Sequence record: PQ351811
Length of the DNA: 64,000 bases
Origin: Shigella phage SSG23
Strand: one strand, 5' to 3'
Part shown: one piece after another, positions 40,932-45,636 of the stretch
Position numbering within the stretch: position 1 is the stretch's first letter
Layout: every line of letters starts with the position of its first letter
Translations under genes and position numbers: made by a program
Notes under the pieces: model-generated
Seen by the model: the letters and a program-made list of their open reading frames with translations, nothing else
Databases searched by the model: none
Told to the model about the DNA's origin: nothing

Positions 40932-41387
40932 ATGATTATTGATACTGTAAAGGGCGATCTCATCGCCCTGTTTAAACAAGGAAACGGTCATTTAATTCAT
41001 GGTTGTAATTGTTTTCATACTATGGGCGCTGGTATTGCTGCGGATATCGCAAAAGAGTTCCCGCAAGCGTTAGAGATTGACAAGCAAACTTCTCGCGGTA
41101 AGGTAGAAAAGCTGGGTGGGTTTAGTGTCTGGACGCATCAAGTTAATGGTTATAACTGGTGTGGGGTGAATCTCTATACCCAATTCCGACCGGGTCCAAA
41201 TGCTGAATATAGTGCTATCCTGAAAGGATTTGAGTCTCTCAATGATGTTTTTGAAGGTGCTATACAGCCTTTCTATATTCCTAAAATCGGTTGCGGTATC
41301 GGTGGCCTTGAGTGGGAATGCGTAGAAGAAATCATTAATATTGCTACTCCAGATATCAATATTGTGGTGGTTGAATATGGCAAATAA
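40932..41387 (+). CDS. macro domain protein (ADP-ribose binding/processing)
   Basis: 151 aa; HGCNCFHTMGAGIA and KIGCGIGGL glycine-rich motifs characteristic of macro domains. Confidence 0.65.
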   Translation: MIIDTVKGDLIALFKQGNGHLIHGCNCFHTMGAGIAADIAKEFPQALEIDKQTSRGKVEKLGGFSVWTHQVNGYNWCGVNLYTQFRPGPNAEYSAILKGFESLNDVFEGAIQPFYIPKIGCGIGGLEWECVEEIINIATPDINIVVVEYGK

Positions 41388-41571
41388 AAATGATCTATAT
41401 TCCGGCGATTGGGTTAAACGTCAGACTGTAGAAAACGTAACTTGTTTTCGTTGTTTCACTGAATACAATATAAAAACCGCTCCTGTTAGTGTTCCAAAGA
41501 CAGACGGGTATTATATTAAAGAACCGCATTGCCCTAAATGTAAATGTCGATTATATTGGAGTCATCTATGA
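41377..41571 (+). CDS. small zinc-ribbon protein
   Basis: ORF trimmed to ATG; CFRCF...CPKCKC (two CxxC pairs). Confidence 0.45.
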   Translation: MANKNDLYSGDWVKRQTVENVTCFRCFTEYNIKTAPVSVPKTDGYYIKEPHCPKCKCRLYWSHL

Positions 41572-41786
41572 AGAAGCCTAATACCGCTCACATGAAGGAA
41601 AACTGCCGATGTGGTAGATGTGGTTGGCCTATTATCTTCACTTGCTGTAACGACGATATGCAGCGTTTACCGTGGGGAATGTGGGATTGGTGGATGTATT
41701 GCAGCAATAAAGGATGTATTCACCATGAAGGCGAAGGAGTGTTTCAAGAAACGCCTGATTGGGTGGAGGTGATAGAAAATGCTTGA
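41568..41786 (+). CDS. small Cys-rich (zinc-binding) protein
   Basis: ORF trimmed to ATG after GGAG; CRCGRCGW...CCNDD...CSNKGC. Confidence 0.45.
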   Translation: MKKPNTAHMKENCRCGRCGWPIIFTCCNDDMQRLPWGMWDWWMYCSNKGCIHHEGEGVFQETPDWVEVIENA

Positions 41787-42072
41787 GACTATCATTAACC
41801 TTGTTATGTGGACTTTTAATTTCGTTATTGTTATTATTGCGGGTATTGAGATCGTCAAGCAATATCTGTTACAATCCAGAAATAAACATGTTGTAATTGA
41901 TATGGATTCTCAAGGAAATAAGCTGATCCTGCTAGAAGACGGTCGGGAATATTGGGTAGGTTATCCAAAGACACTACGCGGATTTATCTTTGCTATGGGT
42001 GTTTGCTTCTTTTTCCTTTGTATCTGGGTTTATGTTGGTTTAGGTCTTGCTGGATTTTTGGAGATTAATTAA
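41779..42072 (+). CDS. small membrane protein
   Basis: 97 aa, two hydrophobic helices. Confidence 0.45.
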   Translation: MLETIINLVMWTFNFVIVIIAGIEIVKQYLLQSRNKHVVIDMDSQGNKLILLEDGREYWVGYPKTLRGFIFAMGVCFFFLCIWVYVGLGLAGFLEIN

Positions 42073-42668
42073 TGGCTCAACTATATTTCTACTATGCATC
42101 TATGAACGCTGGCAAATCAACTTCCCTGCTACAAAGTGCTTATAACTATACCGAACGTGATATGCGAGTATTAATTCTTAAACCAGCGATTGATAATCGT
42201 GATTCAGATAGTGAAGTTGTTTCCCGAATTGGTCTAAGTGCTCCAGCGATCACCTTCACTAAATCGGATGATCTTTTCGATTTGGTTTATCGTGAATCAC
42301 TGGGTAAGCGTAGACCAGATCGCTGGCGTCCTGATGCTGTATTTGTAGATGAAGCCCAATTTATGACTAAAGAACATGTTTTAGGCTTATGTGCACTGGT
42401 TGATGATGCCAATATCCCTGTTTTGTGCTATGGCCTTCGCACTGACTTTAAAGGCAATCTATTTGAGGGATCTGCGGCATTAATGGCATTGGCTGATAAA
42501 CTGGTTGAAATGAAGGGTATTTGTCATTGCGGTAAGAAAGCAACTATGGTCCTTCGCGTAGATAAAGATGGTAATGTTATTCGCGATGGTGCTCAAATAG
42601 AAGTTGGTGCAGAGGATAAATATGTTTCTGTGTGCCGTAAACATTTTATTGACGGAACTACCAACTAA
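42072..42668 (+). CDS. tk: thymidine kinase
   Basis: 198 aa; MAQLYFYYASMNAGKSTSLLQSAYNY... matches the bacterial/T4 thymidine kinase N-terminus and P-loop; C-terminal CHCGKKA zinc motif. Confidence 0.9.
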   Translation: MAQLYFYYASMNAGKSTSLLQSAYNYTERDMRVLILKPAIDNRDSDSEVVSRIGLSAPAITFTKSDDLFDLVYRESLGKRRPDRWRPDAVFVDEAQFMTKEHVLGLCALVDDANIPVLCYGLRTDFKGNLFEGSAALMALADKLVEMKGICHCGKKATMVLRVDKDGNVIRDGAQIEVGAEDKYVSVCRKHFIDGTTN

Positions 42669-42736
42669 GAGTTAATCATAAATAAAGCCCCAGATTATAA
42701 ATATAACTGAATATTTTCAATCTGGGGGAATGACTT

Positions 42737-43039
42737 ATGTCATTTATTCGTAAAACTCTAACAGCGGCAATATGCTTGACTGCGGTCGGAAGTGTCAGTG
42801 CTGATCAATATGATCCAACTGGTGACTTTACTGATTATTTCGACGGTGCAATGATAGTATATGTAAACAAAATATCTCCTTCCATTGAAACCAGCCAGAA
42901 ATTTCATGCCCATATTATGAAGATGTATGCTCGTAGTAAATGTATGGATTCTAAGCAGTGTTTTATTATGGGGGAATATGCCGCAAAACAATTTGTTATG
43001 TTGTATAATGTGGAGAATCGAGAACATGAAATTCAGTGA
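42737..43039 (+). CDS. secreted hypothetical protein
   Basis: 100 aa, N-terminal signal peptide (LTAAICLTAVGSVSA), two Cys. Confidence 0.5.
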   Translation: MSFIRKTLTAAICLTAVGSVSADQYDPTGDFTDYFDGAMIVYVNKISPSIETSQKFHAHIMKMYARSKCMDSKQCFIMGEYAAKQFVMLYNVENREHEIQ

Positions 43040-43424
43040 TTTTCGAAAGACGTCCGAAGAGGGGAAAGCTAATAAAGTTGACCGCTTTATCGGTGAATGT
43101 CTGATGAGTGTTACTTATATGCATTCTGCGCATTTTGGGGTGACTGGTCCAGGATCTTATGCAAAACATAAGGCTCTAGAAGAGTTCTATCTTGAAATGC
43201 AAGAATTGGTTGATAATTTCACTGAAACCAATATTGGGATCACTGGTCGTTATCAACCAACGTTGGTCGTCCGCAAGGAGATTAGCGAAATTGCCTATTT
43301 GCAAGAGTTAACGCAAATGGCTAGTGAGATTTATAATGATGTTGATAGCTCGTTACAGAGCGTTTTAGATGATATCAAAGTTCTATGCTTTAAAACAATT
43401 TATAAACTCACTCGACTGGCTTAA
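43026..43424 (+). CDS. Dps/ferritin-like protein
   Basis: ORF trimmed to ATG after GGAG; HSAHFGVTGPGSYAKHKALEEFY...ELVDNFTE resembles the Dps ferroxidase-site pattern. Confidence 0.45.
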   Translation: MKFSDFRKTSEEGKANKVDRFIGECLMSVTYMHSAHFGVTGPGSYAKHKALEEFYLEMQELVDNFTETNIGITGRYQPTLVVRKEISEIAYLQELTQMASEIYNDVDSSLQSVLDDIKVLCFKTIYKLTRLA

Positions 43425-43445: not shown

Positions 43446-45593
43446 ATGCCAGCAGAAATTAAAAACACTACAATTAACTCTCAAATTTGGCTTCCTCATA
43501 CTTTTGAATGTTCGATTGTTGCCGAGTCGGATGACCCGGAGAAAAGACGAAAAGGATATTTATGGAAAAAGAACGATAAGTTGATCACAATGACCGATGG
43601 TCCGTCTTTTCCGCTAAAGTCTGTTAAAGAGGAAGATAAAACAGGTTGGTCTGTTAATGTTCGTGGTTTTGCTCAAGATGATGAAAATCTTTCTGGCGAA
43701 TCCGTAGATATCGGTACGGAAAACTTCACCTTTGAACTTTTTGATAATCCATATGTGGAACATGTATACCCGCCTACGTCTTTTAATATTGGTGATGAAA
43801 TCAAGGCAAAGATTGTTTTTCGTAGTCATATCCAGCCTAATATTTCGGTTGACCTTTATTATAATGATGGTTTGGTTGATTCCGTTGACGGTGATCTGGG
43901 GTTAGACCATCGTGAATTTAAAATTGCAAAATTCGCGTGGCCTGAATTTTCCGGTACATATAAAATGGAATTGAGTGATGAACATGGTGAGGTTAAGTTT
44001 GTATATCCTTTCTATGCAAATATCACTGAAAATAAGGAAGTATTCAACGTACAAAAATATGCACCTGCCTATTTTACAGTAGAGGATGATGCACCGAATC
44101 AGGCGGAATATACTATTGTCCGATATCGACTAGAGCGCAATGATGGTAGTTTGGTTTATGAGTCTAAAGATAAGACTCTATACGTGACTAAACACGCTCA
44201 ACCGTCCGATGCTGGGGTTTATATTGCTTTTGTTCGTGCATATAAGGTTGTTAATGGACCTGGTGCTGGGACCGAATATGTGGATGGTGAAAAACATCGA
44301 TTCACAGTTAACGTAAAAGAAAACGAATTTTTTAGCCGTGATTTTAGTGCTATTGATTTTCGTTATCCTTCTGGGTCTACTGTAAACCTTGATATGCCAG
44401 TGATGCAAGCCGATAGCTCATGGAATCGTCATTATGGTATGCTTACTAACAACGTTTACTTTACGTGGATGCTTGGCGGTAAGAAACTACAAAGTAAAAA
44501 ATATGGTGATGAAGGATATGACCGAATCACATTATCTGGATTGCAATATGATAACAGCGTTGCGCTTCAATTGTTGGTTGCTCCTGCCAATCCAGCGGGT
44601 GAACAGGTGATTCCTAACGGTCGCCCATTATTTTATGATCGTCGTATGCTTGAGATTTATGATAAAGAGTATGATTATCGTAATATTGAAGTGGGTGAAC
44701 CGATTGTTCTCAAGATCGTAGATCCTGAACCGCCAGCTAGTGATGATCCTGAACAAACGCGAACTTTGGTTATCACCAAAAACGACGTTAAAGTAACGGA
44801 ACTTCCACTAGGTACTAAGGAATATAAGATCACCGACTCTGCGGACCGAGACCATAACGGCATCTGGGCGCATGAATATCGTGATAGTCCGAGTAAAGAT
44901 CCATTTAGTGCACATACTGATTTTGATATTGCTGGTCGTTCGACCTATCATGTTGAAGTAGTGCCGAATATGGAGTTTGACGGTCCTCATCCTGTGCAGG
45001 TGACGGAGGGTGATACCCTGACGCTAGAAGCAACCATGCTAAAACCGCCAGCCTCATATGTTCCGACTTATGAGTTTAGTAAAAACGGTGTTAAAATGGA
45101 AATGGAAGACCCAAGAAGTCCGATTTACCGTAAAGCAAACGTTACGCTAGAGGATGCTGGTGTTTATCGATTTGTTGCATTTGCTGATAAAAACAGCAAC
45201 GATGAACTAGATCCTGGCGAGATTGTCGGGTATACAAAATATGTTCAGGTTGTAGTTAATAAACGTCCTGTGCGACCGGATGAACCTAGACCGGAAGTTA
45301 AAATTGTTACTATGTTTAACGAGTTTAGCAAAGGTCGATTTAGTCCGTGTCCGTATTGGGTAATTGATGAGCTTGTCGAATTGATGGAAGACCCGCATGG
45401 CTGGATGGATAAACTTGAAGATTCTGTCTACTATGACTGGCAAATCACTATCTTTAATGAGTTCCTAAAAGGCAAGGATTTGTATCTTCAAGATTCGTGT
45501 AATGGTTACTGGGCGATTGTCCGCCAGAAGGATATGTCTATTGAAACTGGCTATGGTCGATTCAAACACTACTATACAAATGGACGTGAATAA
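43446..45593 (+). CDS. large acidic protein with Ig-like repeat signatures
   Basis: 715 aa; repeated D-x-G-x-Y beta-sandwich-like motifs (PSDAGVYIAFVRAY, LEDAGVYRFVAFAD). Confidence 0.55.
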   Translation: MPAEIKNTTINSQIWLPHTFECSIVAESDDPEKRRKGYLWKKNDKLITMTDGPSFPLKSVKEEDKTGWSVNVRGFAQDDENLSGESVDIGTENFTFELFDNPYVEHVYPPTSFNIGDEIKAKIVFRSHIQPNISVDLYYNDGLVDSVDGDLGLDHREFKIAKFAWPEFSGTYKMELSDEHGEVKFVYPFYANITENKEVFNVQKYAPAYFTVEDDAPNQAEYTIVRYRLERNDGSLVYESKDKTLYVTKHAQPSDAGVYIAFVRAYKVVNGPGAGTEYVDGEKHRFTVNVKENEFFSRDFSAIDFRYPSGSTVNLDMPVMQADSSWNRHYGMLTNNVYFTWMLGGKKLQSKKYGDEGYDRITLSGLQYDNSVALQLLVAPANPAGEQVIPNGRPLFYDRRMLEIYDKEYDYRNIEVGEPIVLKIVDPEPPASDDPEQTRTLVITKNDVKVTELPLGTKEYKITDSADRDHNGIWAHEYRDSPSKDPFSAHTDFDIAGRSTYHVEVVPNMEFDGPHPVQVTEGDTLTLEATMLKPPASYVPTYEFSKNGVKMEMEDPRSPIYRKANVTLEDAGVYRFVAFADKNSNDELDPGEIVGYTKYVQVVVNKRPVRPDEPRPEVKIVTMFNEFSKGRFSPCPYWVIDELVELMEDPHGWMDKLEDSVYYDWQITIFNEFLKGKDLYLQDSCNGYWAIVRQKDMSIETGYGRFKHYYTNGRE

Positions 45594-45602
45594 AACATAA
45601 TC

Positions 45603-45636
45603 AAAAGCCATCCGAAAGGGTGGCTTTTTCGTTTTT
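45603..45636 (+). terminator. rho-independent terminator
   Basis: Hairpin AAGCCATCCGAAAGGGTGGCTT followed by TTTTCGTTTTT. Confidence 0.75.

What the first reader, a model, noticed from the sequence alone, without database searches (positions are those of the whole stretch)
43026..43424. Short Dps/ferritin-like protein
The 132 aa ORF contains HSAHFGVTGPGSYAKHKALEEFY followed by ELVDNFTE, matching the spacing of the Dps inter-subunit ferroxidase residues (H, H, then D-x-x-x-E). It is shorter than cellular Dps, so it may be a truncated ferritin-fold protein. A phage Dps-like protein could protect DNA from oxidative damage or sequester iron.
Basis: partly seen in the sequence, partly recalled or inferred. 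Interest (0 to 1): 0.4.

Follow-up and report, generated by a model that had tools for sequence, protein, structure and literature searches.

The report
Phage rI.-1: compact Dps-like protein

Summary
The ORF at 43026..43424 (+), 132 aa, is confirmed, with the motifs as quoted. The window is 100% identical to Shigella phage SFHK24 (Krischvirus, T4-like). The ORF is the ortholog of T4/Phi1 gene rI.-1. It lies downstream of tk and overlaps the end of the antiholin gene rI by 14 nt.

The four core Dps inter-subunit ferroxidase ligands (H36, H48, D63, E67) are four of only five invariant columns across 64 diverse family members. They are conserved in at least 170 of 173 sequences.

The protein is not end-truncated. 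It is compact: no BC helix, a short helix C, and no Lys-rich DNA-binding tail.

The most likely function is a Dps-type metal (iron) oxidising and sequestering protein made in the infected cell. Oligomer state, metal binding and physiological role are untested. The database name "starvation-inducible transcriptional regulator" has no support.

This is a known gene family, and the mechanistic reading is plausible and directly testable. Interest is moderate to low.

The parts
43026..43424 (+). rI.-1 ortholog: 132-aa DUF5856 protein, a compact Dps-like four-helix bundle (predicted helices at residues 3-37, 44-73, 88-103 and 108-131).
43122..43226 (+). Codons for the Dps-type ferroxidase-centre residues: H33, H36 (end of helix A), H48, E52, D63 and E67 (helix B).
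   Evidence: Codons read directly. Mapping to Dps ligands. Conservation: H36 171/171, H48 170/171, D63 171/172, E67 172/172 of non-gap residues. These are four of the five invariant columns in A2.
42737..43039 (+). rI antiholin (lysis-inhibition regulator), 100 aa. Its last 14 nt overlap the start of rI.-1, so translational coupling is plausible.
   Evidence: ORF. Pfam PF24205 Antiholin E 3.1e-23. PHROG 1246 lysis inhibition. Phi1 annotation. Not annotated in GenBank PQ351812.
42696..42703 (+). T4-type late-promoter consensus TATAAATA in the tk-rI intergenic region, 34 nt upstream of the rI start codon.
   Evidence: 5 matches in the window, which is not more than chance overall, so only the position is meaningful. 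Golec et al. 2010 place a late promoter between tk and rI.1 in T4.
42072..42668 (+). tk thymidine kinase, the upstream neighbour that fixes the T4-type synteny tk - rI - rI.-1.
43446..45593 (+). 715-aa ORF with weak Ig-like / Hoc-like similarity, 21 nt downstream of rI.-1. It is absent from Phi1 and most relatives. Listed as context only; it is not shown to be functionally linked.
   Evidence: ORF. PHROG 1149 Hoc-like E 3e-9. Ig_3 below cut-off. Only 5 of 58 related phage records cover this stretch. Absent in Phi1.
45603..45628 (+). Strong intrinsic-terminator-like hairpin (11-bp stem followed by a T run) that would end the rI / rI.-1 / ORF715 transcription unit.

Best explanation
The ORF encodes the Krischvirus version of T4 RI.-1, a cytoplasmic, acidic (pI 5.4) 15-kDa protein of the phage family DUF5856. 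This family is a compact, divergent relative of bacterial Dps.

Shown here: it folds as a four-helix bundle. It carries, on the end of helix A and along one face of helix B, the residues that in Dps form the di-iron ferroxidase centre at the two-fold subunit interface: H36 and H48 (plus E52) from one chain, D63 and E67 from the partner chain.

Inferred mechanism: two chains pair as in Dps to complete two metal sites, possibly assembling further into a dodecameric shell. Fe2+ is bound and oxidised by H2O2 or O2, removing Fenton reactants. This would protect replicating and packaging phage DNA in a cell whose own oxidative-stress response (host Dps, catalase) can no longer be induced after T4-type host shut-off.

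The gene overlaps the antiholin gene rI and is probably co-transcribed with it. It would therefore be made in infections that can be prolonged for hours by lysis inhibition. That would fit the small LIN-prolonging effect of over-expressing T4 rI.-1.

Shown: homology, fold, ligand identity and conservation, operon position, and expression of the T4 ortholog. Inferred: dimer or dodecamer formation, iron as the metal, ferroxidase activity and the physiological role.
For: Sequence: the only PDB sequence hits are Dps proteins (Dlp-2 4.1e-5, B. brevis Dps 4.5e-5, and others). The diverse family profile still finds Dps (2d5k 5.9e-5, HP-NAP 6e-4). hhalign against HP-NAP gives E 3e-5.

Ligands: query H36/H48/E52/D63/E67 align with L. 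innocua H31/H43/D47/D58/E62 and E. coli H51/H63/D67/D78/E82.

Selection: in 64 sequences averaging 29% column identity, only five columns are invariant, and four of them are H36, H48, D63 and E67. The chance of that overlap is about 2e-6 by my hypergeometric estimate. In 173 sequences the four are conserved in at least 170. The H48-D63 and D63-E67 spacings are fixed at 15 and 4. T4 RI.-1 (30% identical) keeps all five.

A ferritin/bacterioferritin intrasubunit site is excluded. The protein has only three His and no ExxH motif (read from the sequence).

Expression: T4 rI.-1 RNA and protein were detected and classed 'middle' (PMC9697503, supplementary file 4).

Genetics: over-expressed T4 rI.-1 slightly prolongs LIN (PMC2962797).

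Homologues exist in phages without rI (Kuttervirus EP75; RaK2, PMC3622015). The core function is therefore not LIN-specific.
Against: No experiment on any DUF5856 member shows metal binding, ferroxidase activity or oligomer state. I found no paper noting the Dps relationship.

The similarity to Dps is confined to the end of helix A and helix B. Pfam Ferritin PF00210 is not hit, and the NCBIfam Dps equivalog scores 16 bits against a cut-off of 114.

The BC helix, which sits on the Dps two-fold interface, is absent, and helix C is short. Dps-like dimerisation and 12-mer assembly are therefore not guaranteed.

The Trp next to the first His in Dps is Phe here and Leu in most of the family. The fifth ligand position (E52) is variable. 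In most members the A-B loop is 3 residues shorter than in Dps.

Confidence: 0.55

Rival explanations
1. RI.-1 is primarily a lysis-inhibition accessory factor. It modulates RIII (and so the RI-T holin complex) by protein-protein contacts. The Dps-like bundle is only a scaffold, and the conserved His/Asp/Glu serve structure or partner binding rather than iron chemistry.
For: The gene overlaps rI and shares its operon in T4, Phi1 and this window. In T4, over-expressed rI.-1 slightly prolongs LIN, strengthens the effect of rIII and relieves RIII toxicity, and it has no effect in an rIII mutant (PMC2962797; reviewed in PMC6832632).
Against: The effects are small, come from plasmid over-expression only, and have no deletion phenotype. 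The reviewer calls the role 'as yet undefined'. Homologues occur in Ackermannviridae, away from any rI, and in RaK2, which lacks RI, RIII and T. The family has at least 1903 clusters at 50% identity, far beyond T-even phages. The invariant residues are exactly the Dps metal ligands, which a pure adaptor role does not explain.
Confidence: 0.15
2. It is a virion- or prohead-associated ferritin-like protein, analogous to ferritin-like cargo of encapsulins. It would be packaged or assembled with the head to protect packaged DNA, or to handle iron needed by structural proteins.
For: In the 39.5-kb podovirus ctEw122 the homologue lies between the portal gene and the prohead protease / major capsid genes. 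DUF5856 domains are embedded in 700- to 1900-aa low-complexity proteins with recurring short motifs that resemble virion-internal polyproteins. BFVD contains phage Dps-like domains annotated as fused to prohead proteases. A ferritin-like protein of phage G was detected in particles (PMC12484599). A late-promoter consensus lies upstream of rI.
Against: Nothing here places the T4 or Krischvirus protein in virions. In T4 its RNA and protein are 'middle' class rather than late. The gene sits among early/middle nucleotide-metabolism and lysis-timing genes, not in a head module. There is no conserved capsid-targeting or cleavage motif at the N-terminus (my inspection). PHROG scans of the neighbours of the giant fusion protein gave nothing. 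An iron supply for gp37-type fibres does not fit Ackermannviridae, which use tailspikes (my own knowledge).
Confidence: 0.1
3. It is a DNA-binding protein or transcriptional regulator, as the database name 'starvation-inducible transcriptional regulator' or 'DNA-binding ferritin-like protein' says.
For: PHROG 858 and several GenBank/RefSeq records carry that name. PHROG 3636 'DNA binding protein' is hit at E 2.3e-6. The first 20 residues of this protein are mildly basic (pI 9.5). Some Dps proteins bind DNA through N-terminal lysines (established knowledge).
Against: The name is inherited from old names for Dps and rests on no experiment. I found only two papers using the phrase and did not open them; by title and abstract neither is a study of this family. 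The protein is acidic overall (pI 5.37), as is the family (median 5.3). The T4 N-terminus is not basic (pI 5.9). There is no helix-turn-helix or other DNA-binding domain in Pfam. Many Dps proteins do not bind DNA at all (for example A. tumefaciens Dps, 1o9r, described as protecting DNA without binding it).
Confidence: 0.07
4. It is a generic helical-bundle protein with no metal site, and the resemblance to Dps is convergent or compositional.
For: The profile search also picks up designed helical bundles, syntaxin and coronavirus spike heptad repeats at similar E-values through the C-terminal helices. Foldseek E-values to the PDB are only about 1e-2.
Against: The Dps hits run through the ligand-bearing helices A and B, not the C-terminal helices. 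All 19 single-sequence PDB hits are Dps. The ligand columns are invariant while the rest of the protein drifts to 29% identity.
Confidence: 0.05

Closest known systems
Bacteriophage T4 RI.-1 (gene rI.-1, UniProt P13303; 'uncharacterized 14.6 kDa protein in mobD-rI intergenic region') and its Phi1 ortholog phi1p085
   Same: Same gene position (tk - [rI.1] - rI - rI.-1) with the start overlapping the rI stop. Similar length (132 aa against 128-132). Same N-terminus MKFSDF. 30% identity to T4 and about 92-98% to Krischvirus relatives. Same Pfam family. All five Dps-type ligand positions are retained.
   Different: This window has no rI.1 between tk and rI. The A-B loop carries a 3-residue insertion (GPG) that restores the Dps spacing of 12, where T4 has 9. 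A 715-aa ORF follows the gene here instead of the mobD.5 genes.
Pfam DUF5856 (PF19174) / PHROG 858
   Same: Full-length match well above the curated cut-off. Typical size: most members are 113-145 aa.
   Different: Nothing of substance; it is an ordinary member. The family has no published function or solved structure. The best PDB sequence hit of the family profile is a Dps at only E 5.9e-5.
Bacterial Dps mini-ferritins (e.g. Bacillus anthracis Dlp-2 1JIG, Listeria innocua Dps 1QGH, H. pylori NAP 1JI4, E. coli Dps 1DPS)
   Same: Four-helix bundle. Ferroxidase ligands at equivalent positions on helices A and B with identical spacing in this protein. A conserved aromatic residue (Y55) after the third ligand, as in the Dps 'EELY' segment. 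Acidic overall.
   Different: 10-35 residues shorter. No BC helix and a 16-residue helix C. Only about 14-21% identity. Trp next to the first ligand is replaced by Phe or Leu. No Lys-rich N-terminal tail. It fails the Pfam PF00210 and NCBIfam Dps thresholds. Dodecamer formation is unknown.
Ferritin / bacterioferritin / rubrerythrin-type di-iron carboxylate proteins
   Different: They bind two irons inside one bundle through paired ExxH motifs on helices B and D. This protein has no ExxH motif and only three His, all near the A-B junction.
Encapsulin ferritin-like cargo proteins, and phage Dps domains fused to prohead protease
   Same: Ferritin-superfamily domains associated with HK97-type shells. 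Some DUF5856 members sit in head modules or in giant putative internal proteins.
   Different: There is no evidence that the T4 or Krischvirus protein is packaged. It has a different genomic neighbourhood. Encapsulin Flp uses an intersubunit di-iron site built from a two-helix unit, not the Dps ligand set (my own knowledge).

Membership tests
Pfam DUF5856 (PF19174) | Score above the curated gathering threshold of the family HMM | tested here: met
   73.8 bits against a cut-off of 34.6, E 2.4e-20, profile positions 6-94 of 94. All 21 close homologues carry PF19174.
T4-type rI.-1 orthologous group | Sequence homology to T4 and Phi1 RI.-1 | tested here: met
   tblastn hits T4 at E 8e-11 and Krischvirus phages at 96-100% identity. 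30% identity to T4 RI.-1 in the A2 alignment. PHROG 858 matched full length.
T4-type rI.-1 orthologous group | Conserved position immediately downstream of, and overlapping, the antiholin gene rI, next to tk | tested here: met
   Window: tk 42072-42668, rI 42737-43039, ORF 43026-43424. Phi1 and T4 have the same order.
Dps (mini-ferritin) family | Four-helix-bundle ferritin-like fold | tested here: met
   [not shown]
Dps (mini-ferritin) family | Inter-subunit ferroxidase ligand set: His (helix A), His and Asp/Glu (helix B), then Asp-x3-Glu further along helix B | tested here: met
   H36, H48, E52, D63 and E67 align with Dps ligands. The four core ligands are invariant in the family. Whether they actually meet across a dimer interface was not testable.
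Dps (mini-ferritin) family | Short BC helix in the long B-C loop, lying on the two-fold axis | tested here: not met
   Residues 74-87 are predicted as loop with no helix, and helix C has only 16 residues.
Dps (mini-ferritin) family | Recognition by curated Dps/ferritin models (Pfam PF00210, NCBIfam Dps equivalog) | tested here: not met
   PF00210 is not reported even at E<=10. NF006975 Dps scores 16.1 bits against a cut-off of 114.
Dps (mini-ferritin) family | Assembly into a hollow 12-mer with 23 symmetry and iron-entry pores | not testable with these tools
   Only single-chain prediction was available. Conserved acidic residues at the start of helix D (D107, D115) are suggestive only.
Dps (mini-ferritin) family | Fe2+ oxidation by H2O2/O2 and iron mineralisation | not testable with these tools
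   This needs biochemistry. I found no published data for any DUF5856 protein.
Ferritin / bacterioferritin di-iron carboxylate proteins | Intrasubunit di-iron site built from two E...ExxH motifs | tested here: not met
   The protein has three His (33, 36, 48) and none is in an ExxH motif (sequence).
Transcriptional regulators (as named in PHROG 858 and RefSeq) | A recognisable DNA-binding domain or a basic DNA-binding surface | tested here: not met
   There is no Pfam DNA-binding domain. pI is 5.37 and the family median is 5.3.

The most novel reading that the evidence does not exclude
RI.-1-type proteins are a phage-specific class of compact Dps, with a ferroxidase site retained on a minimal bundle lacking the BC helix. 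Phages would deploy them as their own iron and peroxide buffer. In T-even-like phages the gene is wired to the lysis-timing operon, so that infected cells held for hours in lysis inhibition stay viable. In other phages the same domain is built into head-internal proteins, echoing ferritin-like cargo in encapsulins. If so, a 'function unknown' gene of T4 would gain a biochemical activity, and phage control of host iron and oxidative chemistry would be a widespread, unrecognised trait (at least 1903 sequence clusters).
Probability: 0.2. Interest if true: 0.6.

Novelty: new member of a known kind. Interest (0 to 1): 0.35.

Why it matters
rI.-1 is one of the many T4 genes still listed as hypothetical. 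Its only published study infers a vague accessory role in lysis inhibition. Public records name it, without evidence, a transcriptional regulator.

Recognising that its most conserved residues are the Dps ferroxidase ligands turns it into a protein with a concrete hypothesis that can be tested on the bench: oligomer state, iron binding, peroxide-dependent iron oxidation, and phenotypes under oxidative or iron stress or prolonged lysis inhibition.

The family is large (about 1900 clusters at 50% identity; 1422 phage genome records). Any activity found would therefore apply to many therapeutic and environmental phages.

The gain is incremental. The family and its ferritin-like flavour are already in Pfam, PHROGs and IMG.

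Tried and rejected
1. I rejected the longer 165-aa reading from ATG 42927 used in GenBank PQ351812. It overlaps rI, and no homologue carries that extension.

2. The family profile A1 against PDB sequences gave weaker Dps hits than the single sequence, plus spurious coiled-coil hits to coronavirus spike HR regions. The broader A2 profile restored Dps as top hit but also drew in designed bundles and syntaxin through the C-terminal helices. I treated these as compositional.

3. hhalign of A1 against E. coli Dps gave only 0.7% probability. A2 against HP-NAP gave 73% and against L. innocua Dps 8.5%.

4. The search for related loci with A2 failed because the alignment is too diverse. Scans of viral contigs with the fusion proteins P0142 and P0144 found nothing.

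5. Pfam scans of ten long DUF5856 fusion proteins showed no second domain. PHROG scans of genes flanking the 1934-aa fusion protein in L007 returned nothing. The 'head-internal cargo' idea could therefore not be tested further.

6. Literature searches for DUF5856, phage Dps-like proteins and the RefSeq product name found no biochemical work on the family. The older T4 papers Paddison 1998 and Miller 2003 are not held.

7. I considered an iron supply for His-coordinated iron in gp37 tail-fibre tips and set it aside. The family also occurs in tailspike phages (Ackermannviridae) and in a small podovirus.

8. The count of late-promoter consensus matches in the window is not above chance. Only its position upstream of rI carries weight.

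Full report
**1. Observation**

The frame is open from ATG 42927 to the stop codon at 43422-43424. The ATG at 43026 gives a 132-aa product, MKFSDFRKTSEEGKANKVDRFIGECLMSVTYMHSAHFGVTGPGSYAKHKALEEFYLEMQELVDNFTETNIGITGRYQPTLVVRKEISEIAYLQELTQMASEIYNDVDSSLQSVLDDIKVLCFKTIYKLTRLA. Both quoted motifs are present, at residues 33-55 and 60-67.

Phi1 annotates a 399-bp rI.-1 at the same place. T4 RI.-1 begins MKFSDF. Eighteen of the 20 homologues in A1 begin at or next to this position with no extension; the exceptions are P0001, which reads V there, and P0010, which has a 13-residue extension. The GenBank record of the identical phage instead calls a 165-aa product from ATG 42927. That start runs through the antiholin gene in another frame.

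**2. Where it is**

The region is 100% identical to Shigella phage SFHK24 (Krischvirus, Straboviridae) and 84-97% identical to other Krischvirus phages.

The gene order is as follows:
- tk at 42072-42668;
- a T4 late-promoter consensus TATAAATA at 42696-42703;
- rI antiholin at 42737-43039 (PF24205, E 3e-23);
- the ORF at 43026-43424, overlapping rI by 14 nt;
- a 715-aa Ig/Hoc-like ORF at 43446-45593;
- a strong terminator at 45603-45628.

Phi1 and T4 have tk-(rI.1)-rI-rI.-1 in the same arrangement. The ORF is therefore the ortholog of T4 gene rI.-1.

**3. What family**

The protein matches Pfam DUF5856 at 73.8 bits against a cut-off of 34.6. It matches PHROG 858 at E 3.5e-43. That PHROG is labelled 'starvation-inducible transcriptional regulator', a name derived from Dps.

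Public sources call members hypothetical, DUF5856 family protein, RI.-1, DNA-binding ferritin-like protein, or starvation-inducible transcriptional regulator.

tblastn finds the gene in 1422 phage records. The sampled hits include Straboviridae and Ackermannviridae phages of enterobacteria, and the organism counts also list Aeromonas phages.

An exhaustive profile search finds 1903 clusters (50% identity level) at E<=1e-3 and 279 at E<=1e-10. Most are 113-145 aa.

**4. Relation to Dps**

With the single sequence, all 19 PDB sequence hits at E<=10 are Dps-family proteins. The best are Dlp-2 at 4.1e-5, B. brevis Dps at 4.5e-5, 2d5k at 7e-5 and Dlp-1 at 8e-5. A profile of 64 diverse family members still puts a Dps first, at 5.9e-5. 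hhalign to HP-NAP gives E 3e-5.

AlphaFold2 with a 21-sequence alignment gives pLDDT 87.3 and pTM 0.81, with helices at 3-37, 44-73, 88-103 and 108-131.

**5. The metal site**

Alignments map H36, H48, E52, D63 and E67 onto L. innocua Dps H31, H43, D47, D58 and E62, and onto E. coli Dps H51, H63, D67, D78 and E82. The Dps residue numbers come from my knowledge of the Dps literature.

Across 173 sequences the conservation among non-gap residues is as follows:

| Residue | Conserved |
|---|---|
| H36 | 171/171 |
| H48 | 170/171 |
| D63 | 171/172 |
| E67 | 172/172 |
| E52 | variable (N/E/D/G/Q) |

In the 64-sequence alignment (mean column identity 29%) only five columns are invariant: H36, H48, D63, E67 and Y126. 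By a hypergeometric estimate, the chance that four of five invariant columns fall on five pre-specified positions out of 129 is about 2e-6.

The spacings H48-D63 (15), D63-E67 (4) and D115-Y126 (11) are fixed. H36-H48 is 9 in 161 of 173 members and 12, the Dps value, only in nine. These are the query's clade; the ctEw122 podovirus homologue, read separately, also has a spacing of 12.

T4 RI.-1 keeps H, H, D, D and E.

The protein has no ExxH motif, so a ferritin/bacterioferritin-type intrasubunit site is excluded.

**6. How it differs from Dps**

- There is no BC helix, and helix C is short.
- The Trp beside the first ligand is Phe here and Leu in most members.
- There is no Lys-rich tail. The pI is 5.37 and the family median is 5.3.
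- The curated Dps/ferritin models are not satisfied.

The protein is therefore compact rather than truncated. I treat DUF5856 as a Dps-like sister family rather than as Dps proper.

**7. Function**

No biochemical data exist. Golec et al. 2010 (PMC2962797) found that plasmid over-expression of T4 rI.-1 slightly prolongs lysis inhibition, enhances the effect of rIII and relieves RIII toxicity. They proposed modulation of RIII. Abedon's 2019 review calls the role undefined. Neither the sections of the Golec paper that I read nor the rI.-1 passages of the review mention Dps.

T4 rI.-1 RNA and protein are detected during infection and classed 'middle' (PMC9697503 supplement).

Homologues occur without rI in Kuttervirus EP75. 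They also occur in RaK2, which lacks RI, RIII and T (PMC3622015). The core activity therefore cannot be LIN-specific.

The best-supported mechanism is a Dps-type inter-subunit metal centre that oxidises and sequesters iron, protecting phage DNA metabolism after host shut-off. Linkage to rI suggests particular value during prolonged infections. Everything beyond fold and ligands is inference. My confidence is 0.55.

**8. Rivals**

The rivals are an RIII/LIN adaptor (0.15), a head-associated ferritin-like cargo (0.10), a DNA-binding regulator as named in the databases (0.07), and a non-metal bundle (0.05).

The cargo idea rests on four side observations:
- a podovirus homologue lying between the portal gene and the protease/capsid genes;
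- DUF5856 domains inside 700- to 1900-aa low-complexity proteins with recurring motifs;
- phage Dps domains annotated as fused to prohead proteases in BFVD;
- a ferritin-like protein found in phage G particles.

None of these bears directly on the T4-like gene.

**9. Verdict**

The gene and its family are already catalogued: T4 rI.-1, DUF5856 and PHROG 858, with an identical GenBank entry. I therefore rate it a new member of a known kind. The useful residue is a sharp, testable hypothesis for an old 'unknown' T4 gene, and a warning that the circulating product name is unfounded. Interest is 0.35.

Noticed in passing
window 42737-43039 (+) and 42927-43424 (+); L001 4259-4414 and 4428-4925: The GenBank record of the identical phage (PQ351812) does not annotate the rI antiholin gene. 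It annotates a 51-aa minus-strand ORF inside it. It also starts the rI.-1 CDS 99 nt too far upstream, giving 165 aa. rI is clearly present (PF24205, E 3e-23).
   Followed up: yes
window 43446-45593 (+), terminator 45603-45628: A 715-aa ORF sits 21 nt after rI.-1 and ends at a strong terminator. It is present in only 5 of 58 related phage records and absent from Phi1, ECD7 and T4. It has only weak Ig-like / Hoc-like similarity in residues 512-698, and the rest has no family match. It may be an accessory surface or decoration protein inserted into the rI operon.
   Followed up: partly
proteins P0072 (1934 aa, locus L007 8408-14212), P0144 (1439 aa), P0142, P0126, P0096, P0171: DUF5856 domains are embedded in very long, Q/G/A-rich proteins of uncultured phage-like contigs. 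These proteins carry recurring short motifs: 'ASWNFL' in P0144 and P0171, and '(K/R)xFS' in P0096, P0126 and P0142. They resemble cleavage or anchor sites of virion-internal polyproteins. No other Pfam or PHROG domain was found in them or in their neighbours.
   Followed up: partly
L005 3426-3848 and L011 (MW202640.1, podovirus ctEw122): A 140-aa homologue has the H, H, D, E ligands and the same 'GPGS' A-B loop as the query. It lies directly after the portal gene and upstream of the prohead protease and major capsid genes, inside the head-morphogenesis module.
   Followed up: partly
BFVD hits (A0A6J7WIS1, A0A6J7XDU5, A0A6J7WPK9; G3MA87, phage G gp346): Several uncultured-phage proteins annotated 'prohead protease' contain a Dps-like domain that matches the model. 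The ferritin-like gp346 of phage G also matches, and a 2025 paper reports it in virions. Ferritin-like domains associated with phage heads may be a wider phenomenon.
   Followed up: no
[not shown]
   Followed up: no
window 40932-41387 (+); cluster 1: The Tk.4 homologue is a Macro-domain protein (PF01661) that databases label 'phosphatase'. In the 90%-identity protein collection, the 151-aa Macro proteins and the 132-aa RI.-1 proteins are listed in one cluster. This looks like a clustering artefact.
   Followed up: no
window 41341-41571 (+) and 41544-41786 (+): Two small overlapping ORFs upstream of tk encode Cys-rich products with CxxC-type pairs (CFRCF...CPKCKC and CRCGRCGW...CC...C...C.HH). 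This suggests zinc-ribbon-like mini-proteins of unknown function.
   Followed up: no
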